Part shown: piece by piece, positions 51,019-60,870 of the stretch
How positions within the stretch are numbered: position 1 is the stretch's first letter
Layout of the letters: the number at the start of each line of letters is the position of its first letter
Virus record (IMG/VR): IMGVR_UViG_3300026549_000080
Coordinates: 3,431 to 67,430 of that record
From: a virus
Lineage: Duplodnaviria > Caudoviricetes
DNA: 64,000 nucleotides
Direction: 5' to 3' (one strand)
Position numbers and translations under genes: made by a program
The notes under the pieces: model-generated
The model's input: only the letters and a program-made list of their open reading frames with translations
Databases searched by the model: none
Told to the model about the DNA's origin: nothing

Positions 51019-51523
51019 TGGATATGCAAGAAGTGGAAAAGATACTTTTTGTAATATGGCCTTTTTTAATCGAGGTTTAGTATATTATTATTCTACCATT
51101 GATGAAGTTAAAAAATTTGCGAAAATATTAGGTTGGGATGGAAAGAAAGACGAAAAGGGAAGGAAACTATTAAGTGACCTAAAAGATTGTCTTACCGAAT
51201 ATAATGATTTACCTAATAAATATGTACTTGCACAGATTAAGCGAAAACTTTCTATAATTATTGATCCAGATAATTCTATATTTTTAGTGCAGATGAGAGA
51301 ACCAAAAGAAATAAAGCAATGGTGTAAGAACTATAATGCAAAATCGCTTCTCATTAGGCGCCCCGCTATAGAAAAGAAATGGGGAAATCACGCAGATGAT
51401 GGGGTATTAACTAATGAATATGATTATACAATATATAATGATAGCACTATAGAGGATTTAAAAGAAAAAACAATTGATTTTATTGATAAAGTAAGAAAAG
51501 AAGATTGGGAGTCATATATATGA
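50999..51523 (+). CDS. deoxynucleoside-monophosphate-kinase-like P-loop protein
   Basis: MKIICVNGYARSGKDT, LGWDG.KDEKGR.LL; start moved to SD-preceded ATG. Confidence 0.65.
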   Translation: MKIICVNGYARSGKDTFCNMAFFNRGLVYYYSTIDEVKKFAKILGWDGKKDEKGRKLLSDLKDCLTEYNDLPNKYVLAQIKRKLSIIIDPDNSIFLVQMREPKEIKQWCKNYNAKSLLIRRPAIEKKWGNHADDGVLTNEYDYTIYNDSTIEDLKEKTIDFIDKVRKEDWESYI

Positions 51524-52662
51524 GAAATTATATAGATGGAATTAATTTTTGGGAACTTGAGGCAATGCGCTATTATGCTCCGCCAAAGAGTTGGGACGCA
51601 GATAAAATAAAAGATACTACAACTTCACGTATTTTTAGTGGAGACTGGTATGGTGCCAGAAAACGTGATGGTGCTTTTTATAAATTTATTAAAGACGAAG
51701 ATGGAAATATGTCTTTGATTGGGCGCAGTAAAAGTAAGTCGGGTGATTATTTAGATAAGTATGATTGGGTTCCTCACCTACACCCATTCTTTGAAAGCCT
51801 TCCCAATGGAACTTGCTTACTTGGGGAGCTTTATCTTCCGCGTAATGAACAGGCGCGTACTACAACATCAATAATGAATTGCCTTCAGCCTAAAGCGGTT
51901 AGTCGTCAAGAAAAAGAAGAAAATAAACTTCATTATTATATATTTGATATACTCGCAGATGAAGGTAGGTCACTTATAAATATGAAAGCAATTAATCGGT
52001 TTCTTTTACTTAATTCATATTTAATTGCTTATGGAGAAAATTATAACCACTGGGCGCAATACAAGTCTGGACAGGAACTTTGGAATATGTTGCAGGAAAT
52101 TCTTGCAGAAGGCGGCGAGGGTGTGGTTATTACTCGTGAAGATGCACCATATCAACCTGGCAAAAGACCATCTAAAGATTGTCTTAAAGTTAAAAAAGAA
52201 CTCCAAGATACAATTGATTGTGTTATTATGGGCGCAGTAGCTCCAACCAAAACCTATACAGGTAAAGAAACTGAATCATGGACTTATTGGTTTGACGATC
52301 AAAACAATAAAAAAATAACCGCTGATGAATATCTCGCTAAATATCACACAAATATCTATGCAGCCTATGTCGATGGCGCGCCAGTGATACCAGTAACTAA
52401 AAACTGGTTTTATGGATGGGCTGGTTCATGGCAAATCGGCGCCTACAAAGATGGAAAGTTGATTCCTATCGGTAAACTCAGCGGTCTTACTGACGAAATG
52501 AAAGAGAATTGGAAAAGTTATACAAATAAGATTGCAGAAGTCAGCTGTATGGAAATAATGGAGAATGACGATGGATCAAAAGGACTTAGGCATCCGAAGT
52601 TAATCTCAGTAAGAGAGGACATAGACCCTAAAGACTGCACTTGGGAGAAAATTTTTGGATAA
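51520..52662 (+). CDS. lig: ATP-dependent DNA ligase
   Basis: KxDG (RKRDG), LGELY, IFDIL, EGVV, KVKK, C-terminal LRHP...REDI. Confidence 0.85.
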   Translation: MRNYIDGINFWELEAMRYYAPPKSWDADKIKDTTTSRIFSGDWYGARKRDGAFYKFIKDEDGNMSLIGRSKSKSGDYLDKYDWVPHLHPFFESLPNGTCLLGELYLPRNEQARTTTSIMNCLQPKAVSRQEKEENKLHYYIFDILADEGRSLINMKAINRFLLLNSYLIAYGENYNHWAQYKSGQELWNMLQEILAEGGEGVVITREDAPYQPGKRPSKDCLKVKKELQDTIDCVIMGAVAPTKTYTGKETESWTYWFDDQNNKKITADEYLAKYHTNIYAAYVDGAPVIPVTKNWFYGWAGSWQIGAYKDGKLIPIGKLSGLTDEMKENWKSYTNKIAEVSCMEIMENDDGSKGLRHPKLISVREDIDPKDCTWEKIFG

Positions 52663-52679
52663 AAATTGATTCTGAAAAT

Positions 52680-52708
52680 TTGAAAAGTTTTTAAAATTTA
52701 ACTATAAT
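52680..52708 (+). promoter_or_regulatory. sigma70/sigmaA promoter driving the ribozyme/large-RNA locus
   Basis: TTGAAA-AGTTTTTAAAATTTAAC(17)-TATAAT. Confidence 0.75.
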
Positions 52709-52783
52709 AAATATATAAGATAAAGAAACGAAGGGCGACGGTTTCTTGTTTTCCTTTCTACCGTCGCCCGCATCGGATGATGT

Positions 52784-52838
52784 GGCATCAATTAAGACTA
52801 CCTCCTCGTGGTGATGCTGGATAACGCTAAATGTCTTT
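52784..52838 (+). ncRNA. minimal HDV-like (theta-type) self-cleaving ribozyme A
   Basis: P1 GGCATC/GATGCT (G1.U), P2 AAGAC/GTCTT, P3 ACC/GGT, L3 TCCTCGT, P1.1 CC/GG, J4/2 GCTAAA. Confidence 0.8.
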
Positions 52839-52839
52839 G

Positions 52840-53450
52840 GTTAAATTGAATATAAGAACTCAGTGTAGAATTACTAAACCAGTAAGCTGAGGCGCAATGG
52901 AATGAATAGGTCGGGTCAACGAAACAGGGATACTTGTGGATAGGCGCCGTAATAAATAAGGTGACTTATTTATTTAAGTGGGTGGAACCCCAAACCTAAG
53001 TTGTGGCGCTTCTGATTATTGCAAGTAAAAGCAGAGTGTGGGTCGGGTCATAATAGAAGCAATTGTGAATAGCTTTTGCTGAATCAAAGTTAGGCATAAG
53101 ACGTGGAACTCTATGCAACCCTTTGAAATTCCAATAAGACTTTTGCCGTGAAGCAGAGAAATCTGTGTATAAGGCCTGCATGTCGCGTACGAGTAGCTCA
53201 AGGCATGACTTTTAATACAAGAAAAGTGTTTTCTTTTGATAAAGAAAGAAAGAAATTTTATGACCGTAAGGTGGGTGAAAGTTAGAAGTAATCAATCTTC
53301 TACGAGATATAGGACGTAAGTCTGTTGAAAGGTGTAAACCCTTTTGGGGTATGTGAGGTTAAGGTCGCTCCTTAGTCTGCGGACATATCTCCTCGGTGGC
53401 TGAATATACTTGAAAATAGTTAGGGGTAAGGTGAAAATCTCTTTTATTTA
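52840..53450 (+). ncRNA. large structured ncRNA, GOLLD-like
   Basis: ~600 nt without a credible ORF, GC-enriched, many hairpins (AATAAATAAG/CTTATTTATT, TAGAAG/CTTCTA, GAGATAT/ATATCTC); the 3' part resembles GOLLD from memory and was not model-tested. Confidence 0.6.
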
Positions 53451-53490
53451 ATTTAATTTTAAAGGCTTGGGGAAGTTCCCCTTGCCATAT

Positions 53491-53555
53491 GGCGTCATGG
53501 GGTTGCCTTCTCGCGGCGGCGCTGAATAGGGTAAGACACCTGAACTAAAACCTTA
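53491..53555 (+). ncRNA. HDV-like self-cleaving ribozyme B
   Basis: P1 GGCGTC/GGCGCT, P2 TGGGGTT/AACCTTA, P3 GCC/GGC, L3 TTCTCGC, P4 TAGG/CCTG, J4/2 ACTAA. Confidence 0.78.
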
Positions 53556-53587
53556 ATAGTTTATATTAAAAAATAGGAGTGTGCGAA

Positions 53588-53857
53588 ATGATTATTTCAA
53601 GTGAGCTAACGGGTAAACAGTATAAAACAGTTCAAGATTGTCTTAGTGATGAAAAACTTTTTAAGAAACAGTTAGAAGAAGAAAAGAAAGCAGAAGAAAA
53701 ACGTAAGAAAGAATTAGAGAAAGCTTATAATGAGGCCGTTATAGCATGTAATAAATATTTAGAACTTTGTGGTGTAAAGACAGGCGTTAAAAAAGGTGAA
53801 GATGAAGATAAATATGACCTTCTTGATAAGTGGGTTGAAATAACATTTGGTATTTAA
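53588..53857 (+). CDS. hypothetical protein
   Basis: ~89 aa; start moved to ATG with AGGAG SD. Confidence 0.6.
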   Translation: MIISSELTGKQYKTVQDCLSDEKLFKKQLEEEKKAEEKRKKELEKAYNEAVIACNKYLELCGVKTGVKKGEDEDKYDLLDKWVEITFGI

Positions 53858-53875
53858 AAGAAAGGATTAAAACAA

Positions 53876-54019
53876 ATGATGAGCAAAGAAATTAGACTTT
53901 TAAGGGCGAAGGTAAGATTACATTATTTAAAAAGTAATGGTAAAAATATTGATTCTCCCGGAGTCGTACAGAAACTTGAAAGAAAAATTAGACGTATGGA
54001 ATCTGAAAAGGGAGATTAA
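53876..54019 (+). CDS. small basic protein (47 aa)
   Basis: Read by hand; AAAGGA SD; terminator-like stem after. Confidence 0.5.
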   Translation: MMSKEIRLLRAKVRLHYLKSNGKNIDSPGVVQKLERKIRRMESEKGD

Positions 54020-54101: not shown

Positions 54102-54314
54102 ATGGCGAATAGACTTGGAACTATGAGATTTGAATTATATGATGAAAGAGAAATTCCATATAATGATTCTATTGACTGTACTTTTACACTTTACAATGAC
54201 GATGATGATGATGAAATTTTGTCTATTGAAGAATATAGAGAGCTATGTGTGAGGTTTGCTGCGGCTATGGGTTTTCATAACAAAACTATTGCAGAATGGT
54301 TTGGGGATTATTAA
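54102..54314 (+). CDS. small acidic hypothetical protein
   Basis: 70 aa, own promoter and SD. Confidence 0.6.
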   Translation: MANRLGTMRFELYDEREIPYNDSIDCTFTLYNDDDDDEILSIEEYRELCVRFAAAMGFHNKTIAEWFGDY

Positions 54315-55220: not shown

Positions 55221-55307
55221 GCGGTTGTGTCGGAATTGGCAGACGACTCGGACTTAAAATCCGATGCTCCTGTGAGCGTGTGGGTTCAAATCCCACCAGC
55301 CGCACCA
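55221..55307 (+). tRNA. trnL: tRNA-Leu(UAA)
   Basis: Cloverleaf, long variable arm, loop CTTAAAA, encoded CCA. Confidence 0.93.
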
Positions 55308-55310
55308 CAT

Positions 55311-55385
55311 AAGGACCTGGTGTAATTGGTAGCATAATGGTCTCCAAAACCATTGGTTTAGGTTCAAGTCCTAAGGTTCTTGCCA
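55311..55385 (+). tRNA. trnW: tRNA-Trp(CCA)
   Basis: Loop CTCCAAA, TTCAAGT T-loop, CCA. Confidence 0.92.
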
Positions 55386-55530
55386 ATATAAGGCTTGGGT
55401 AAGAGGACCCTGTAAGTAGTTGATAGTGGAACAATAACCTTTGTCGTTAAATAGCTGGCGCTGAGCGACAATAAACAATAGCGTGAGCGGGCGGAAGCGG
55501 GTAAGCCGCCGCGATATAAATACCGTATTT

Positions 55531-55605
55531 GGTCTATTCGTATAAAAGTTATTATGTCGCCCTGTCACGGCGAAGACAGCGGAGCATTACCGCTATAGAC
55601 CGCCA
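55531..55605 (+). tRNA. trnD: tRNA-Asp(GUC), variant elbow
   Basis: TCGCC-CTGTCAC-GGCGA anticodon arm; T-loop AGCATTA; CCA. Confidence 0.85.
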
Positions 55606-55739
55606 TGGGTTGCAACCCTTTACGCTCGCAGGTTTATTCCATACCAGGGAGAACACGATTTAGAAGGAATACGTTGTCCAGTTTGCGTAAAATTATGGTT
55701 CTCGATAATCCTGATACTGGAAAAAAATCGAATATATAT

Positions 55740-55815
55740 GGCTTTATAGCTCAGTTGGTAGAGCGGGGCGCTGTTAACGCCTGTGTCCTAGGTTCGAGTC
55801 CTAGTGGAGCCGCCA
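55740..55815 (+). tRNA. trnN: tRNA-Asn(GUU)
   Basis: Canonical cloverleaf, loop CTGTTAA, CCA. Confidence 0.93.
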
Positions 55816-55818
55816 CAT

Positions 55819-55893
55819 TGGGGAATCGTCAAGCGGTAAGACACAGCACTTTGACTGCTGTATGCGCAGGTTCGAATCCTGCTTCCCCAGCCA
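55819..55893 (+). tRNA. trnQ: tRNA-Gln(UUG)
   Basis: U1-A72, loop CTTTGAC, CCA. Confidence 0.93.
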
Positions 55894-55894
55894 T

Positions 55895-55982
55895 GGAAAG
55901 TTGCAGGAACGGTAACTGGTTAGATTGCTAATCTAAAGCCATCCGAAAGGGTGAGGAAGTTCGACTCTTCCACTTTCCGCCA
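55895..55982 (+). tRNA. trnS: tRNA-Ser(GCU)
   Basis: Long variable arm, loop TTGCTAA, G73, CCA. Confidence 0.92.
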
Positions 55983-56133
55983 GTAGATCTATCATAACTC
56001 TTGAAACTGATTTAACCAATCGAAGTGTGAAGTTATAGGGGACGGTGGATTAATTATCCAGACTTTGTGGTGAAGTCATAGCGGTAATGACTCTATCGTT
56101 GGTACGTTTTCAACACATCTTTAATTTTTATTA

Positions 56134-56203
56134 ATTTTGAACCTTTTTTATAAAGTTCGAAGTTAGAAAAACTACTTTATATTAGAAAATGGAGGTTCAA
56201 AAT
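56134..56203 (+). promoter_or_regulatory. RBS-sequestering hairpin enclosing putative late promoter of the HNH gene
   Basis: ATTTTGAACCT (56134-56144) pairs with AGGTTCAAAAT (56193-56203), covering SD and start; CTACTTTATATTAG lies between the arms. Confidence 0.7.
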
Positions 56204-56870
56204 GAGTAAAGAATGTGCTTACTGTGGAAAATTATTAACAACAGAACAAAGACATAATACCTATTGCTCTCAAAAGTGTGCCAATGCTGCCAAGAAAAAG
56301 AAGAAAATTGATGCTTGGCTTTCTGGAGAATTTAGCGGGAGTAAAAGTGGTGGTCAACTATCTGTTACAATTCGTAATTATCTTTTAGAAAAAGCAGGAT
56401 ATAAGTGTGAGCTGTGTGGATGGCACGAAATAAATCCTACAACTAATAAAGTGCCTTTAGAAATTCATCATATTGATGGAGATTATGAAAATAATCGACC
56501 CGAAAATTTACAGGTTCTTTGCCCTAATTGTCATTCTTTAACGCCGAATTTTAAAGCGTTGAATACGTCGGAAAGACAAAGAACACAGGTAAGAAAAGAT
56601 AAAAAAGAATATTATTGTGTTGATTGTGGGAAACCAATTAGTAAAGGGTCGACAAGATGTCAACAATGTGAAGCAAAGCATCGTATTACAGAAAAACCAT
56701 ATAGTAGAGAAGAATTAAAACAACTAATTAGAACTACTCCTTTTACAACTATAGGTAAACAAGTTGGAGTTACAGATAATGCTATAAGAAAATGGTGTAT
56801 TCAATATAATTTACCTAGTAAAGTGCGCGATATTAAACAATATAGCGACGAAGAATGGGAAAAAATTTAA
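56202..56870 (+). CDS. HNH homing endonuclease with Zn ribbons and HTH
   Basis: CELCG, LEIHHIDGDYENN..ENLQVLCPNCH, CVDCG, VTDNAIRKW. Confidence 0.88.
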   Translation: MSKECAYCGKLLTTEQRHNTYCSQKCANAAKKKKKIDAWLSGEFSGSKSGGQLSVTIRNYLLEKAGYKCELCGWHEINPTTNKVPLEIHHIDGDYENNRPENLQVLCPNCHSLTPNFKALNTSERQRTQVRKDKKEYYCVDCGKPISKGSTRCQQCEAKHRITEKPYSREELKQLIRTTPFTTIGKQVGVTDNAIRKWCIQYNLPSKVRDIKQYSDEEWEKI

Positions 56871-56873
56871 AAT

Positions 56874-56948
56874 GGTCTCATAGTTTAATCAGTAAAACCG
56901 GCGACTTGTAATCGTCAGACCTCAGAGCATAACTGAGTGAGACCTCCA
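56874..56948 (+). tRNA. trnT: tRNA-Thr(UGU), variant elbow
   Basis: Loop CTTGTAA; T-loop AGCATAA; CCA. Confidence 0.87.
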
Positions 56949-57015
56949 TCAACGGTATCGCTATTGGGTCTATTAAATAGATTCCGCCGATAGTCCTTAA
57001 TTGGACTATCAACTT

Positions 57016-57105
57016 GGAGGGTTGGCAGAGTTTGGCTGATTGCGACGGTCTTGAAAACCGTTGAGTGTAATAGCTCCGTGGGTTCAAATCCCACACCCTC
57101 TTCCA
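57016..57105 (+). tRNA. trnS: tRNA-Ser(UGA)
   Basis: Long variable arm, loop CTTGAAA, CCA. Confidence 0.92.
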
Positions 57106-57148
57106 CTGGATATAGCTCAGCTTGGTAGAGCGCTTGATTTGGGTTCAA
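57106..57148 (+). pseudogene. truncated tRNA-Pro(UGG), 5' half only
   Basis: CTGGATA-TAGCTCAGCTTGGTAGAGC-CTTGA-TTTGGGT-TCAA; no acceptor 3' strand. Confidence 0.75.
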
Positions 57149-57167
57149 TCCCAAGAAAAATTATTGA

Positions 57168-57320
57168 CCAATTTTATATAGTCTCTAATTTAAAATTACT
57201 TATAATTAGAGATAAGTGGGCGTAGGGGAAGAGGGACCCCGCCAGTTTTGGGAACTGGACATTACTGCGTCTTCGAGTGGCGTCGCCCGCACCATGAATA
57301 AAGAGACTATATAAAATTGG
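57168..57320. repeat. perfect 19-bp inverted repeat flanking a tRNA-Pro
   Basis: CCAATTTTATATAGTCTCT (57168-57186) / AGAGACTATATAAAATTGG (57302-57320). Confidence 0.9.
57216..57294 (+). tRNA. trnP: divergent tRNA-Pro(UGG)
   Basis: GTGGGCG/CGCCCGC acceptor, CCAGT-TTTGGGA-ACTGG, TTCGAGT loop, ACCA. Confidence 0.8.
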
Positions 57321-57328
57321 AGGAAGAT

Positions 57329-57409
57329 ATGGGAAAAGCATTAACAAGAGAAGAAGTTATTCGACGATTAAATAAAACATTTATACAAAAAGTTGAATTT
57401 TTAGAATAA
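57329..57409 (+). pseudogene. 26-aa ORF stub (MGKALTREEVIRRLNKTFIQKVEFLE), possible endonuclease remnant
   Basis: Strong GGAGG SD but premature stop; N-terminus resembles phage homing-endonuclease-type starts (inference). Confidence 0.35.
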
Positions 57410-57413
57410 TTAT

Positions 57414-57490
57414 GGACTATTAGCTCAGTTGGTTAGAGCATCCGGCTCATAACCGGCAGGTCGTAGGTTCAAGTCCTACATGGTCCACCA
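57414..57490 (+). tRNA. trnI: tRNA(CAU), Ile2-type
   Basis: Loop CTCATAA; body closely resembles Firmicute lysidine tRNA-Ile2 (GGAC..TAGCTCAGTTGGTTAGAGCA...GGTCCACCA). Confidence 0.8.
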
Positions 57491-57494
57491 ATAT

Positions 57495-57571
57495 GCCCGC
57501 GTAGCCGAATTGGCACAGGCTGCTGACTTAGACTCAGTGTATTGGAGGTTCGAGTCCTCTCGCGGGTACCA
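57495..57571 (+). tRNA. trnL: tRNA-Leu(UAG) with short variable loop
   Basis: Loop CTTAGAC, Leu-type D loop, A73, CCA; variable region only GTATT. Confidence 0.82.
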
Positions 57572-57628
57572 ATTACTCATGCCTTTTAAAAAGGCGTGAG
57601 TTATTTGCATATATAATAGGAGGTAAGT

Positions 57629-58789
57629 ATGAAAAGAATTTATTTAAAACTGGTAATGATATTATTTATATTTGCTTTTAGTTTTTCTTTTAGCTCGGCC
57701 GCATCAGACGTACAATTAAAAGATTACAATACAATACCAACTATTACAGCTGGAAATTCATATGTAATTTTTGGTCTTATCGAATCTAAAAATAAAATGA
57801 GTCGAGTTGAGGTCGGCGCAGTAGACGTAAAAACAAATAAATGGGTTATTAAGTATGATAAGAAAATTAATACAGATAATTTTAGTCTTTCTAAAGCAGA
57901 CCCATATGTAAAATTTGGAACTTTAAAAGCGGGAAATTATAAGTATCGTATTTATGCTCACTCAAAAGGAAAGGTATATACTTTATTAAATCAATCCTTT
58001 ACTGTAAGGCCAAAACCAATTCAATTTAAAACTGTTAAGGAACAACAAGAATTTCTTAATAGAGTAAATGAGGGAGTATATACTGGAAAGCTTGTTATTG
58101 ATGGGAAGAAAGGACCCAAAACAGTCGCAGCTATAAAAATTTTCCAGCAAGTTGAAGGATTAACAGTAGATGGAAAATGGGGCAAAGCCACAGAAGCAGC
58201 TTCAGATAAGACAATTAATGTAACTGGAAAGCGTAAAGCTATTAATTGGGCTTGTAGTGTTGCTAATGATAATTCTTTTGCTTATGGAACTGGGCAAAGA
58301 GCGCATAGAAGCGGTTGTTATTTTTGTAAAACAAATACTGGCGATAGAAAATGGAAGAAAGAAAAGAAAGGTGAGCCGCATAAAGTAAATGGGCATACTT
58401 ATACTAAAACATATTGTTGCAATCCTTTTATAACAGCTGCTTATGCTCATGGCGCCAAAGATGCAAAACTTTATAATATATGTCATGCTGGTGCCAGCTG
58501 TGGGATGACCGCAGGTGATTGGAAAAAAAGTCCATATTTTAAAACTCTTGGCAAATGTAAAAATGTTTCTTTTAACCAGTTAAAGGCGGGAGATGTTATT
58601 CTTTCTAATAGTCCAGGTGGAGCAAAGTGGCATCATGTTTGGATGTATATTGGACATAATAGATATGTAGAAGCCTCTGGTGGAAAATGGGATTCTAATT
58701 CTATTGCTGTAAAAGAAAATGCAAAGAAGAATTATAATAATAATTATGCAAAATATAATGGCACTACTGTAATAAGATACAGTAAATAA
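57629..58789 (+). CDS. exported peptidoglycan hydrolase (signal peptide + PG-binding + NlpC/P60-like)
   Basis: Sec-type signal, IDGKKGPKT..A/VDGKWGKAT repeats, YCCNPFITAAY Cys, HHVWMYIG His. Confidence 0.7.
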   Translation: MKRIYLKLVMILFIFAFSFSFSSAASDVQLKDYNTIPTITAGNSYVIFGLIESKNKMSRVEVGAVDVKTNKWVIKYDKKINTDNFSLSKADPYVKFGTLKAGNYKYRIYAHSKGKVYTLLNQSFTVRPKPIQFKTVKEQQEFLNRVNEGVYTGKLVIDGKKGPKTVAAIKIFQQVEGLTVDGKWGKATEAASDKTINVTGKRKAINWACSVANDNSFAYGTGQRAHRSGCYFCKTNTGDRKWKKEKKGEPHKVNGHTYTKTYCCNPFITAAYAHGAKDAKLYNICHAGASCGMTAGDWKKSPYFKTLGKCKNVSFNQLKAGDVILSNSPGGAKWHHVWMYIGHNRYVEASGGKWDSNSIAVKENAKKNYNNNYAKYNGTTVIRYSK

Positions 58790-58906
58790 ACGGTGTTTCG
58801 CAGCCTTTAAATGCGAAGTTTATATATATCTGTGACGGTTCTGACAGAATAAAAACTGACCGAAGCATGAGACGTCGCGCCAGCGTCGGTAAATAAATGG
58901 CGTCAT

Positions 58907-58974
58907 GTCTTTGTAGTGTAATGGAAACACACCTAAGTAGTTAGGAGACGGTAGTTCGAATCTATCCAAAGGCA
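58907..58974 (+). ncRNA. tRNA-like RNA with 4-nt loop replacing the anticodon loop
   Basis: Acceptor GTCTTTG/CAAAGGC, D arm, CCTAA-GTAG-TTAGG, T arm GGTAG-TTCGAAT-CTATC; no CCA. Confidence 0.7.
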
Positions 58975-59037
58975 ACTAAAATTTGCTTTTATTAAAAATT
59001 TCTTATATACTATATATAGAAATAAGGGAGAGAAAAA

Positions 59038-59394
59038 GTGAGAAGATATTTAATTTATGCTTGTGATGATTACTTTGACGGTTATCATGGAATGGATCGT
59101 ATAGCGATTGAAGAGTGCCAAGATTTAGATGAAGCCTGTGCTTTGGGAGAGTCTTATTCTATCGAAGTTATAGAGTCTTATCCAGATATTTATGATATAA
59201 TGAAAGATAGATTGGACGAACTTATTTCAAATGGTTATTCTAATGAAGAGGAGCTATGGGACGAAGTAATTCAAGATGATATTAAATATGAGGTGACAGA
59301 AATTAATGAAGACAAAGCTGGTTTTTACTTAACTGATGAACTTGAAGAAATGGCAATAAATGATTATGGAAATTTTTATAAAAAATTTACTTAA
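59038..59394 (+). CDS. acidic hypothetical protein
   Basis: 118 aa, GTG start, own promoter. Confidence 0.6.
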   Translation: MRRYLIYACDDYFDGYHGMDRIAIEECQDLDEACALGESYSIEVIESYPDIYDIMKDRLDELISNGYSNEEELWDEVIQDDIKYEVTEINEDKAGFYLTDELEEMAINDYGNFYKKFT

Positions 59395-59770
59395 TGGGTG
59401 ACTCTGGAACCGAGTTGATTGGACTCCTAAAGCAAAAACATCCAAAGACGTCTAATGCGGGGTCGGCGCGTAGTAAATGATCCCACCACCCAGCTCGTAG
59501 TTAGTGTTGCGCTGAAAGGCTGTGGGGAACTCCAGGGAAACTCCCTGCAAGAAGGGTTGAGCCTTTACTCAATTGAGTAGTCAGTAACCTGTAAGACTTT
59601 AAAAAACAGAAGTGCGCGAGGTAATATACCCACAAATAAACAAATGGAAATTCCGCGCAAAGGTTTAAACTAAGGTTGGTAGATTACCGAAATCTCTACT
59701 GCTTTGTAAGATGGCACGCAGAAATTTTACACTCGTAAGTGGGGTAGTTATATGACTACCCCTGGTACCA
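59395..59770 (+). ncRNA. unassigned large structured ncRNA candidate (~375 nt)
   Basis: No ORF; stems TGGGTG/CACCCA, CAGGGA/TCCCTG, GCGCG/CGCGC, GGGGTAGTT/GACTACCCC; ends ACCA. Confidence 0.55.
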
Positions 59771-59909
59771 AAAAATTTGCAATATTTTTAAAATATTGAT
59801 ATAATATATATAGAAAGTGAGAGAGAAGTTCCGCAATCGGCGAGGTTTATTACACCGTACTATGACGGGAAACGCACCAAAGAGTAGTTAAATATCATAG
59901 TATTGACGA

Positions 59910-59982
59910 CGCAGGATGATGCAGTGGTCAGCAGCGGATGCTCATAACTTCCGAGTCGGTGGTTCGAATCCACCTCCTGCAA
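59910..59982 (+). tRNA. trnM: tRNA-Met(CAU), initiator-like acceptor, no encoded CCA
   Basis: C1:A72 mismatch, G2-C71, C3-G70, loop CTCATAA, TTCGAAT T-loop; A73 abuts ribozyme. Confidence 0.82.
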
Positions 59983-60039
59983 GAGATACGATAGTTACTA
60001 CCTCCACGTGGTGTATCTTGGATAATGCTAAAAGTAACT
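59983..60039 (+). ncRNA. tRNA-associated HDV-like theta ribozyme
   Basis: P1 GAGATAC/GTATCTT, P2 AGTTACT/AGTAACT, P3 ACC/GGT, L3 TCCACGT, P1.1 CC/GG, J4/2 GCTAAA; G1 directly after tRNA N73. Confidence 0.88.
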
Positions 60040-60065
60040 TAAGTGATAATATGATAGATAAGTAG

Positions 60066-60132
60066 GCCGCAGTAGCTTAATCGGTAAAGCGTCCTGGAAA
60101 CGGGGAGATGTGGTTCGAGTCCAACGGTGGCT
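60066..60132 (+). ncRNA. degenerate tRNA-like RNA with GAAA tetraloop in place of anticodon loop
   Basis: TAGCTTAATCGGTAAAGC D arm, TCCTG-GAAA-CGGGG, TTCGAGT T-loop; imperfect stems; no CCA. Confidence 0.55.
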
Positions 60133-60254
60133 GAAAGTTTATCTAAGTTATCACGATGGAATGTCGCAGAGTAAACTGCGACCTCGCCGCGAAGGAGAAT
60201 CAGAGCTAAATCAACTTTTGGTAGTAATGTGGTTTAACTACTTATTATACCAAC

Positions 60255-60790
60255 TGACCCATATAAATCCTGAATTGACAGGATAACATGCACACAGAAG
60301 ATGTGCGGAGACGCGAAGCGAAAGTGAGCGTACTCGTCTCGTGAGCGACGTAATGCTATGGGTGAGGCTTGTGTAGCCAACAAGTTAGCAAATACACAAC
60401 TTTTGATAAAGATTCTTATGTACCTCTCATAGCAGCATGTGCAGCTGAAGTATCCAATATAAGAGTCGAACATAATCTATAACAATCCAACATAAGTAGT
60501 TCCGGAACAATGCTTATGAGATCGCCGCCTGACGCAACAGGTCGCGCCTCTGAAATGGACGGGCGTGATACAACAATACTCACCGTGGATTGATCACCAC
60601 AATAATTTCGGAAATGTAGAGAATGGATCCGTGGAACGAGCGAGAAGTTATAGACCAATAAATTGCTCTTACCATTGAGGGCAAATCAATGGCGCGAAGG
60701 TTCCTGCGTAAATGAACCCCTCTGGCATACTGGTTTGTATGCTAACCTGTAAACTATGGGCGGGAGATTAGATTCTCTTACCCATAGGTG
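60255..60790 (+). ncRNA. unassigned large structured ncRNA candidate (~530 nt)
   Basis: Follows putative late promoter; stems ATCCTG/CAGGAT, GAGACG/CGTCTC, CATAAGTA/TGCTTATG, CCATTGA/TCAATGG, GCATAC/GTATGC, CTATGGG/CCCATAG. Confidence 0.55.
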
Positions 60791-60795
60791 TCTAT

Positions 60796-60870
60796 GGTCC
60801 TATGGTCAAGTGGTTAAGATGCTGCCTTTTCATGGCGGCGACCTGGGTTCGACTCCCGGTAGGACTACCA
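60796..60870 (+). tRNA. trnE: tRNA-Glu(UUC)
   Basis: Loop TTTTCAT, TTCGACT T-loop, ACCA. Confidence 0.9.

What the first reader, a model, noticed from the sequence alone, without database searches (positions are those of the whole stretch)
52715..53555. Large ornate ncRNA bracketed by two self-cleaving HDV-like ribozymes: candidate excision/circularisation system
Seen: one sigmaA-type promoter (52680-52708) reads through a short hairpin RNA, HDV-like ribozyme A (G1=52784), a ~600-nt structured non-coding RNA, and HDV-like ribozyme B (G1=53491). Established: HDV-family ribozymes cut immediately 5' of G1, leaving a 5'-OH on the downstream piece and a 2',3'-cyclic phosphate on the upstream piece; RtcB-type ligases join exactly those ends. 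Inference: double cleavage releases a defined 707-nt RNA (52784-53490) with 5'-OH and 2',3'-cP ends. It is either precisely matured without host RNases or circularised into a stable phage circular RNA. I do not know of a described GOLLD/ROOL-type RNA matured by a flanking ribozyme pair.
Basis: partly seen in the sequence, partly recalled or inferred. Interest (0 to 1): 0.92.

Follow-up and report, generated by a model that had tools for sequence, protein, structure and literature searches.

The report
Ribozyme-bracketed ROOL RNA in rumen phage
A cattle-rumen phage encodes the known cage-forming ROOL RNA between two small self-cutting (hepatitis-delta-type) ribozymes that most likely cut it out of its transcript as a linear 707-base RNA, which suggests how this enigmatic RNA gets its ends; nothing found here supports the idea that it is made circular.

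Summary
The large RNA is ROOL (Rfam RF03087, 286 bits, 52835-53459).

Both flanking elements are complete HDV-like ribozymes, with G1 at 52784 and 53491 and catalytic C at 52827 and 53545. A covariance model built only from ribozymes of other phages finds them at 53 and 44 bits; the only other significant hit in the window is a tRNA-Met-linked copy at 59983. P1, P2, P3 and P1.1 covary across 29 copies.

The whole layout (promoter, leader hairpin, ribozyme, ROOL, hairpin, ribozyme, small ORF) recurs in four other phage contigs. Two relatives keep only the 5' ribozyme. About 100 other ROOL loci have no 3' ribozyme, so this belongs to a small clade and is not a general ROOL property.

Best reading: RNase-independent trimming to a linear ROOL that keeps ribozyme A at its 5' end, separated from a downstream mRNA.

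Circularisation has no support. No permuted RNA contig was seen, and three complete relatives encode no RtcB.

No searchable paper links ROOL to self-cleaving ribozymes. The closest known system is the tRNA-linked theta ribozymes. This scan has already noted ribozyme-bracketed ROOL on other DNA (e1-5915257, e1-5960006). Cleavage itself is untested.

The parts
52680..52708 (+). Sigma-70-type promoter, TTGAAA-17-TATAAT; predicted start near 52715
   Evidence: Consensus scan gives 11 of 12 positions. No terminator-like site before 54387. Consensus match only; not shown to fire.
52716..52783 (+). Leader RNA: a 10-bp hairpin (52733-52742 with 52760-52769) with a pyrimidine loop UUUCUUGUUUUCCUUUCUA, then a small hairpin at 52770-52783 that ends at the cleavage site
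   Evidence: Folds at -23.9 kcal/mol, z = -3.2. The same hairpin stands before the first ribozyme in L246, L240 and L242; 4 of 10 pairs change compensatorily and the UUUCCUUUCU loop is conserved.
52784..52837 (+). HDV-like ribozyme A, minimal (no P4); predicted cut between 52783 and 52784; catalytic C52827
   Evidence: Matches the descriptor for all helices. Scores 53.1 bits, E 1e-9, with a model built without window sequences. Weak Rfam RF02682 hit of 19.1 bits that starts exactly at G1. Orthologues abut ROOL in L240, L241, L242, L244 and L245.
52835..53459 (+). ROOL RNA
   Evidence: RF03087, 286.3 bits against a gathering score of 99.1, model positions 1-574 of 574. A 100%-identical contig from an RNA library covers 52798-53419.
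53464..53486 (+). 3' hairpin, ending 4 nt before the second cut
   Evidence: Folds at -15 kcal/mol, z = -3.1. A hairpin of different sequence ends 1-10 nt before G1 of every orthologous 3' ribozyme (L240, L241, L242, L244).
53491..53555 (+). HDV-like ribozyme B with a short P4 (within 53526-53544); predicted cut between 53490 and 53491; catalytic C53545
   Evidence: Matches the descriptor. Scores 44.2 bits, E 1e-7, with the model built without window sequences. P4-less orthologues stand at the same place in L240 (2423), L241 (2420), L242 (2412) and L244 (2368), with P1 covarying. No Rfam hit even at E <= 10.
53575..53857 (+). RBS AGGAG (53575-53579) and a conserved 89-aa ORF (53588-53857) of unknown function, downstream of ribozyme B
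   Evidence: ORF list. Homologues follow ROOL in six related contigs, and 15 loci were found by tblastn. No Pfam or PHROG family. Nearest Atlas clusters are viral hypothetical proteins.
59983..60039 (+). Third HDV-like ribozyme, starting on the base after tRNA-Met (59910-59982). It is a classic theta arrangement and shows that the phage uses the same tool on tRNA.
   Evidence: Descriptor match, ARAGORN tRNA coordinates, and 24.2 bits, E 0.002, with model R1.

Best explanation
One promoter drives a transcript that carries, in order: a conserved leader hairpin, a P4-less HDV-like ribozyme (A), ROOL, a short hairpin, a second HDV-like ribozyme (B), and the mRNA of a conserved 89-aa phage protein.

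Like all HDV-family ribozymes, each cuts at its own 5' edge (52783/52784 and 53490/53491). Three products follow:
1. A leader of about 68 nt ending in a 2',3'-cyclic phosphate.
2. A linear 707-nt ROOL RNA. It starts with 5'-OH G52784, keeps the folded ribozyme A as a compact 5' domain directly against ROOL's closing helix, and ends in a hairpin plus AUAU with a 2',3'-cyclic phosphate.
3. An mRNA whose 5' end is the folded ribozyme B.

The ribozymes therefore do for ROOL what theta ribozymes do for phage tRNAs, and what abutting tRNAs probably do at other ROOL loci. They create defined ends without host RNases, and they uncouple a stable, abundant RNA from a neighbouring mRNA.

Shown here: sequence, fold, covariation, conserved order, and one RNA-library contig that joins most of ribozyme A to ROOL. 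Inferred: catalytic activity, the exact ends and their chemistry, and co-transcription.
For: ROOL identity.

Both ribozymes are complete:
- A descriptor requiring P1, P2, P3, P1.1 and the J4/2 C finds them, while C-to-A/G/U decoy motifs find almost nothing.
- The core motif gives 26 real hits against 0-1 per shuffle, and 1 hit in about 1 Mb of unrelated viral DNA.
- Features not used to find the hits are also present: P2 of at least 6 bp in 20 of 21 (null 20%), two Watson-Crick P1.1 pairs in 17 of 21 with C:G, U:A and G:C types, and C-N-R-A before P2' in 21 of 21.
- On a sequence-only alignment of 29 copies, 97% of cells are paired and 35 cells have both sides changed against 9.7 in shuffles (0 of 500 reach it); slid controls give 25-59%.
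- A model trained without the window scores A at 53.1 bits and B at 44.2 bits, with exact ends.

Conserved order: L240, L241, L242 and L244 have 5' ribozyme, ROOL, hairpin, 3' ribozyme, RBS and the same ORF.

Transcription unit: promoter present and no terminator between the parts.

RNA: a 100%-identical contig from an RNA library covers 52798-53419, which is ROOL plus the 3' 40 nt of ribozyme A in one piece. A separate lower-depth contig covers 53510-53991.

Context: the same phage has a theta ribozyme right after tRNA-Met. ROOL of L. salivarius is known to be processed from a promoter 225-450 nt upstream by an unknown route (PMC5643018).
Against: - No cleavage assay exists.
- Rfam's curated HDV models do not reach threshold: A scores 19.1 against 44 bits and B gets no hit.
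- The RNA evidence is assembled contigs from one sample, which cannot show true ends.
- Two close relatives (L245, L246) lack the 3' ribozyme. None of about 100 other distinct ROOL loci has one, and only 3 distinct ones have an abutting 5' ribozyme. ROOL therefore does not need ribozymes.
- L243 keeps the 5'-type ribozyme and the ORF with no ROOL between them, so the ribozymes may primarily serve the neighbouring RNAs.
- Ribozyme A has the weakest P2 of all copies (5 bp).
Confidence: 0.75

Rival explanations
1. The ribozymes are there for the neighbours, and ROOL trimming is a by-product. Ribozyme A makes the 3' end of a leader small RNA whose conserved pyrimidine loop (UUUCCUUUCUA, resembling the 16S rRNA 3' tail from my own knowledge) could act on purine-rich sites. 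Ribozyme B is a 5'-UTR device that frees and stabilises the small-ORF mRNA.
For: - Every ribozyme in these loci directly follows a folded RNA: a tRNA, the leader hairpin, a 'GGTTGGCTGACC' motif, or a simple hairpin.
- The leader hairpin is conserved with compensatory changes and a fixed loop in four phages.
- L243 has motif, ribozyme and ORF with ROOL cleanly absent.
- L245 and L246 have ROOL but no 3' ribozyme.
Against: - In all five bracketed loci the 5' ribozyme is fused directly onto ROOL's first helix, overlapping the Rfam model start by 3-11 nt.
- Independent ROOL lineages (L009, L032, L051) also have an abutting 5' ribozyme, at -488 to -494 from the ROOL motif.
- The cuts are the same under either reading, so this differs in emphasis and not in mechanism.
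- No target for the leader loop was identified.
Confidence: 0.13
2. After double cleavage, the 5'-OH and 2',3'-cyclic-phosphate ends of the 707-nt RNA are joined by an RtcB-type ligase. ROOL would then exist as a circular RNA in infected cells.
For: Two HDV-family ribozymes flank one RNA, and their established chemistry gives exactly the ends RtcB joins (own knowledge). One partial relative, G004, encodes an RtcB about 13 kb from its ROOL.
Against: - Three complete genomes with the same bracket (G001-G003) encode no RtcB.
- This record encodes no RtcB, RNA ligase or PNK, though it is only 57% complete.
- Two relatives lack the 3' ribozyme.
- ROOL forms its octameric cage from linear in vitro transcripts (PMC12286853).
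- Nothing in the sequence pairs the two termini with each other. G1 is buried in P1 of ribozyme A and the 3' end follows its own hairpin.
Confidence: 0.07
3. One or both ribozyme-like elements are catalytically dead relics or purely structural appendages. ROOL's ends would then be made by host RNases.
For: Neither element reaches the threshold of Rfam's HDV models. Ribozyme A's P2 is only 5 bp. No activity data exist.
Against: The catalytic C and all four helices are kept in every orthologue, with compensatory changes including in the 2-bp P1.1. Decayed copies would not keep these. Minimal HDV-like ribozymes of this same design cleave in vitro (PMC10879173).
Confidence: 0.05

Closest known systems
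Theta ribozymes: minimal HDV-like ribozymes of gut Caudoviricetes (Kienbeck et al. 2024, PMC10879173)
   Same: The same nested double-pseudoknot design with P4 reduced or absent, the CUAA J4/2 and the UYCNCGY L3. The same kind of host, a gut or rumen phage with a tRNA array. The same logic: G1 sits directly behind a folded RNA whose 3' end it makes. The window has one textbook case at 59983, after tRNA-Met.
   Different: Here the RNA being cut out is ROOL, not a tRNA. Two ribozymes bracket it, so both ends are ribozyme-made. Ribozyme B carries a P4, so it is not 'minimal'. The paper lists 526 non-tRNA-associated hits in annotated databases (7704 more in metagenomic data) as having unknown function and never mentions ROOL or GOLLD. 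I did not find these exact sequences in the stored supplement text (files may be truncated).
ROOL RNA (RF03087; Weinberg et al. 2017, PMC5737381; Kretsch et al. 2025, PMC12286853; Cousin et al. 2017, PMC5643018)
   Same: A full-length, high-scoring member in a phage beside a tRNA island, from cow rumen like the founding members.
   Different: The papers I could read do not describe how ROOL ends are made. Here the ends are set by ribozymes, and the mature RNA would carry an extra 5' HDV fold and a 3' hairpin that published constructs were not reported to include.
Ribozyme-flanked circular RNAs: HDV and viroid-like replicons, retrozymes, the engineered Tornado twister-RtcB system (own knowledge, not checked in papers here)
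   Same: An RNA between two self-cleaving ribozymes that would leave a 5'-OH and a 2',3'-cyclic phosphate.
   Different: No junction evidence, no conserved ligase, and no pairing of the termini. The 5' ribozyme stays on the product with G1 buried in P1. The unit is DNA-encoded in a dsDNA phage and sits in an mRNA leader.
tRNA punctuation of ROOL and GOLLD loci (processing by RNase P and RNase Z)
   Same: Among 101 distinct ROOL-motif loci, about 15 of 86 have a tRNA ending within about 150 nt upstream (9 within 14 nt). About 15 of 98 have a tRNA starting within about 150 nt downstream. These are the positions that ribozymes A and B occupy here.
   Different: The ribozyme version needs no host enzyme and leaves different end chemistry. 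ROOL boundaries in that count were estimated from an internal motif, so the figures are approximate.

Membership tests
ROOL RNA (RF03087) | Score above the curated gathering score over the full covariance model | tested here: met
   286.3 bits against 99.1, model positions 1-574 of 574, at 52835-53459.
ROOL RNA (RF03087) | Phage or prophage context near a tRNA island | tested here: met
   The window is an IMG/VR virus record. Twelve tRNAs lie at 55221-60870.
ROOL RNA (RF03087) | Assembly into an octameric nanocage | not testable with these tools
   Known for env-120 from cryo-EM (PMC12286853); not assessed for this sequence.
HDV-like self-cleaving ribozymes | Nested double pseudoknot: P1 (starting at G1), P2, P3 and the 2-bp P1.1 between L3 and the bases after P1' | tested here: met
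   A and B satisfy all helices. Covariation is seen in P1, P3 and P1.1 across 29 copies. A model trained without the window scores them at 53.1 and 44.2 bits.
HDV-like self-cleaving ribozymes | Catalytic cytosine at the first position of J4/2 | tested here: met
   C52827 and C53545, each followed by UAA. Decoy motifs with A, G or U at this position find no independent site on the + strand. C-N-R-A is present in 21 of 21 distinct copies.
HDV-like self-cleaving ribozymes | Match to a curated Rfam HDV-type model at its gathering score | tested here: not met
   A: RF02682 at 19.1 against 44 bits and RF01787 at 17.1 against 37 bits. B: no hit at E <= 10. These models were built from other, P4-bearing subfamilies and cannot score pseudoknots.
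HDV-like self-cleaving ribozymes | Mg2+-dependent self-cleavage 5' of G1, leaving a 5'-OH and a 2',3'-cyclic phosphate, abolished by C-to-U | not testable with these tools
   Needs in vitro transcription and PAGE.
Theta ribozymes (Kienbeck et al. 2024) | Minimal form lacking P4 | tested here: inconclusive
   A has a 6-nt L4 and no P4, so it meets this. B has a 19-nt insert with a 4-bp P4, so it does not, although its orthologues in L240-L244 are P4-less.
Theta ribozymes (Kienbeck et al. 2024) | G1 directly after the 3' end of a phage tRNA | tested here: not met
   A follows a leader hairpin and B follows ROOL's 3' hairpin. Only the third copy, at 59983, follows a tRNA. The authors also report non-tRNA-associated hits.
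Theta ribozymes (Kienbeck et al. 2024) | Match to the authors' RNArobo descriptor | not tested
   The descriptor is in a supplementary figure that is not held. I wrote my own descriptor from the drz-Mtgn-1 layout quoted in the paper.
Ribozyme-generated circular RNA | Back-joined 3'-to-5' junction in RNA | tested here: inconclusive
   No joint appears in the two runs that hold the locus, but only assembled contigs were available, and contigs drop rare forms.
Ribozyme-generated circular RNA | A conserved RtcB-type ligase accompanying the element | tested here: not met
   None in G000. Present in 0 of 3 complete bracketed genomes and 1 of 5 related records. Host RtcB could not be examined.

The most novel reading that the evidence does not exclude
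The doubly cleaved 707-nt ROOL RNA is joined end to end by a host RtcB. The phage would then fill the cell with circular, exonuclease-proof subunits of an RNA nanocage. That would be the first natural ribozyme-plus-RtcB circular RNA of a dsDNA phage.
Probability: 0.07. Interest if true: 0.9.

Novelty: new variant of a known kind. Interest (0 to 1): 0.6.

Why it matters
ROOL is one of the largest and most abundant bacterial or phage non-coding RNAs. It forms a hollow RNA-only cage, and neither its function nor its biogenesis is known.

- **Native ends.** A natural ROOL gene whose two ends are set by self-cleaving ribozymes gives a concrete, testable answer to how the mature RNA is made in one phage clade. 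It predicts the exact native molecule: 5'-OH, an attached HDV fold, and a 3' hairpin with a cyclic phosphate. Structural and functional work could use that molecule.
- **Orphan ribozymes.** It assigns a job to some of the thousands of 'orphan' minimal HDV-like ribozymes reported in phages. It extends their known role from tRNA 3' trimming to general punctuation of phage non-coding RNA operons.
- **A cassette to work with.** The clean ROOL presence/absence pair (L243 against L245) shows that ROOL behaves as a cassette in the leader of a small conserved gene, which offers a handle on its function.

Tried and rejected
- **Public phage records:** a BLAST of the locus found no match.
- **Loose IMG/VR pattern:** a pattern for 5' ribozyme plus ROOL start returned chance matches only, with 1 core hit in 118 loci. 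I kept it as a negative control.
- **Relaxed descriptor:** its catalytic-C decoy control was uninformative, because the same sites satisfy a loose J4/2. I replaced it with shuffles.
- **RNA contigs:** nothing covers 52500-52797 (ligase end, promoter, leader) or 53425-53509, and there is no permuted joint. X1 and X2 are one sample. X3 and X6 hold only short conserved ROOL pieces from relatives, and their 'skips' are differences between relatives.
- **RtcB, RNA ligase and PNK3P in G000:** none found, but the record is only 57% complete.
- **Neighbouring ligase (51505-52662) as an RNA-joining partner:** rejected. It is an ATP-dependent DNA ligase, which needs 5'-P and 3'-OH ends. In L118 and L119, ROOL lies on the other strand about 2.5 kb away.
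- **'Minihelix ending in CCA' before ribozyme B:** the CCA is not kept in the four orthologous hairpins.
- **Descriptor hit at 54298:** AT-rich, inside an ORF, and not found by the covariance model, so a false positive.
- **Published supplements:** look-ups in the theta-ribozyme and ROOL cryo-EM papers found none of these sequences. Stored files may be cut, so this is inconclusive.
- **Small ORF:** no Pfam, PHROG or Atlas function.
- **3' ribozyme family:** an exact-type pattern found only the three contigs already in hand.

Full report
**What is there.** The window is part of a 67-kb IMG/VR virus record. Between an ATP-dependent DNA ligase gene (51505-52662) and a 12-tRNA array (55221-60870) lies an ORF-poor stretch. 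Rfam identifies its core as ROOL RNA (RF03087, 52835-53459, 286.3 bits against a gathering score of 99.1, full length). Upstream is a near-consensus promoter, TTGAAA-17-TATAAT at 52680-52708. No terminator-like site follows until 54387. A leader of about 68 nt folds into a stable 10-bp hairpin.

G52784 and G53491 each start a sequence that can be drawn as a complete HDV-type double pseudoknot.
- Ribozyme A: P1 GGCAUC/GAUGCU, P2 AAGAC/GUCUU, P3 ACC/GGU, L3 UCCUCGU, P1.1 GG:CC, no P4, J4/2 CUAA with C52827.
- Ribozyme B: P1 GGCGUC/GGCGCU, P2 UGGGGUU/AACCUUA, P3 GCC/GGC, L3 UUCUCGC, P1.1 GA:UC, a 4-bp P4, J4/2 CUAA with C53545.

A 23-nt hairpin (53464-53486) ends 4 nt before the second G1. After ribozyme B come an AGGAG ribosome-binding site and an 89-aa ORF (53588-53857).

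**Are the ribozymes real?** Rfam's own HDV models are weak here. A gets 19.1 bits, although the hit starts exactly at G1, and B gets nothing. I therefore tested the fold in five other ways.

1. A descriptor requiring P1, P2, P3, P1.1 and C-[U/G]-A-A found four sites in both strands of the window: A, B, a copy starting on the base after tRNA-Met (59983), and one AT-rich site inside an ORF. Decoys with A, G or U in place of the catalytic C found one independent site.
2. The core alone (L3 consensus, 3-bp P3 and 6-bp P1 starting with G) gave 26 hits in 1.14 Mb of ROOL-containing viral loci. It gave 0-1 in each of ten dinucleotide shuffles and 1 in about 1 Mb of unrelated viral loci.
3. In the 21 distinct core hits, features not used to find them were nearly always present. 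P2 of at least 6 bp occurred in 20 of 21 (null 20%). Both P1.1 pairs were Watson-Crick in 17 of 21, through three different pair types. A C-N-R-A junction stood before P2' in 21 of 21.
4. On a sequence-only MAFFT alignment of 29 copies, 97.2% of cells were paired (25-59% when the partner was slid). Thirty-five cells had both sides changed, against 9.7 in shuffles (0 of 500 reached it). Four of the six P1 pairs showed compensatory changes.
5. A covariance model built from 23 ribozymes of other phages only found exactly three significant hits in the 64-kb window, each with exact ends. A scored 53.1 bits (E 1e-9), B 44.2 bits (E 1e-7), and the tRNA-Met copy 24.2 bits (E 0.002). The next hit scored 13.4 bits.

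**Is the arrangement conserved?** Relatives were found through the ligase and through the small ORF. Four other contigs show the same order: L240, L241 (the same contig as L121), L242 and L244. In each, a 5' ribozyme is fused onto ROOL's first helix, then ROOL, a hairpin, a 3' ribozyme, an RBS and the homologous ORF.
- The 3' ribozymes are clearly orthologous (P2 RGGUU/AACCY), and P1 covaries: GGCGUC, GGUAUC, GACACC, GACAUC. All but the window's copy lack P4, so the P4 in B is a lineage-specific insertion.
- The hairpins before them differ in sequence but not in position.
- L245 and L246 have the 5' ribozyme and ROOL but no 3' ribozyme; there the ORF follows ROOL directly.
- L243 has the same motif, ribozyme, RBS and ORF as L245, with the ~630-nt ROOL cleanly absent.

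Outside this clade I examined 116 IMG/VR loci carrying a ROOL-specific motif.
- Only L009/L085, L032/L086 and L051 have a 5' ribozyme abutting ROOL.
- In four others (L048, L058, L062, L074) the ribozyme lies upstream of ROOL's own promoter.
- None has a 3' ribozyme.
- An exact pattern for the 3' ribozyme type finds only the known contigs.

The full bracket is therefore a trait of a small clade of large phages; two of the relatives are complete 115-126-kb genomes with terminal repeats. At other ROOL loci, tRNAs often occupy the same flanking positions.

**Transcript evidence (weak).** Two metatranscriptome runs from one bovine-gut sample hold the locus.
- A 100%-identical contig at depth about 130-140 covers 52798-53419 (52801-53424 in the second run). 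That is ROOL together with the 3' 40 nt of ribozyme A.
- A separate contig at depth 5.6 covers 53510-53991.
- No joint is reported in these runs.

These are assembled contigs. They show that ROOL plus most of ribozyme A occurs as one piece in an RNA library, and nothing more.

**How it most likely works.** HDV-family ribozymes cut at their own 5' edge and stay on the downstream product (established; theta ribozymes of this design cleave in vitro, PMC10879173). The primary transcript would therefore fall into three pieces: a leader with a cyclic-phosphate end, a 707-nt linear ROOL (52784-53490), and the ORF mRNA headed by ribozyme B. The ROOL piece would have a 5'-OH, ribozyme A folded at its 5' end, and a 3' hairpin with a cyclic phosphate. 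This gives defined ends without host RNases and separates a very stable RNA from a neighbouring mRNA. ROOL of L. salivarius is also made from a promoter 225-450 nt upstream of its mature end by an unknown route (PMC5643018), so end-processing of ROOL is a real open point.

**Circularisation.** The chemistry would allow it, but I found no support.
- No RtcB, RNA ligase or PNK is encoded in this (57% complete) record.
- RtcB is absent from the three complete bracketed genomes and present only in one partial relative.
- Two relatives lack the 3' ribozyme.
- The two termini are not paired to each other.
- ROOL cages form from linear transcripts.

I give circularisation 0.07.

**Novelty.** ROOL is known, and minimal HDV-like 'theta' ribozymes in gut phages are known as tRNA 3'-end makers. 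Their non-tRNA copies were left unexplained. No paper in the searchable library holds ROOL or GOLLD together with HDV-like or self-cleaving ribozymes in this sense. I class this as a new variant of a known kind. Earlier AI notes of this scan report the same bracketing on other DNA. I treated them as leads only.

**Caveats.** No activity data exist. The RNA evidence is contig-level and from one sample. ROOL boundaries in the 116-locus survey were estimated from an internal motif.

Noticed in passing
window 59910-60132: A third HDV-like ribozyme (59983-60039) starts on the base after a CCA-less tRNA-Met (59910-59982). It is followed by a weak tRNA-like hit at 60066-60132 (31.8 bits). Its core is almost identical to that of ribozyme A, while P1 and P2 differ.
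   Followed up: partly
window 52733-52769; L246 about 1640-1676; L240 about 1497-1533; L242 about 1282-1320: The leader hairpin before the first ribozyme is conserved in four phages. The stem covaries and the pyrimidine loop UUUCCUUUCU(A) is fixed. From my own knowledge, the loop resembles the 3' tail of Firmicute 16S rRNA. Once cleaved off, it could act as a small RNA on purine-rich sites. No target was sought.
   Followed up: partly
L118 about 1569; L121 about 5920; L119 about 895; L242 1462; L244 1485; L062 12627; L048 2628; L074 4041; L058 4600; L008 790; L093 6857: A recurring motif of about 55-60 nt ('..GAGCAAAUG..hairpin..GCGGUUGGCUGACCUUAAAGC'). It lies directly after tRNA 3' ends or before 5' ribozymes in these arrays. 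There are 11 distinct copies, and no Rfam match even at E <= 10. It is absent from the window and may be an uncatalogued small phage RNA.
   Followed up: partly
L243 2300-2560 against L245 1700-2560: A clean presence/absence of the ~630-nt ROOL between '...CCUUG' and 'GAGG..AUG' in otherwise matching flanks. ROOL behaves as a cassette in the 5' UTR of the small ORF.
   Followed up: yes
G004 (record of L244), C1:31187-32287, minus strand: A 423-aa RtcB gene in one partial relative. It is absent from the three complete relatives.
   Followed up: partly
L029, L046, L049, L080, L088, L094 and L107, about 1.78 kb downstream of their ROOL motif: A conserved HDV-like ribozyme with J4/2 CUGA, standing directly behind a tRNA-like 3' end that ARAGORN missed and 12 nt before the next tRNA.
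   Followed up: no
L249 2386-2466; L250 1401-1606: Relatives carry a short tmRNA-model hit and a group I intron inside their tRNA arrays, next to homologues of the small ORF.
   Followed up: no
window 52770-52783: The 14 nt just before G1 of ribozyme A (GCAUC GGAU GAUGU) form a small hairpin. Its arms repeat the sequences of P1 and P1', so alternative pairings with the ribozyme's P1 strands are possible. This could tune cleavage.
   Followed up: no
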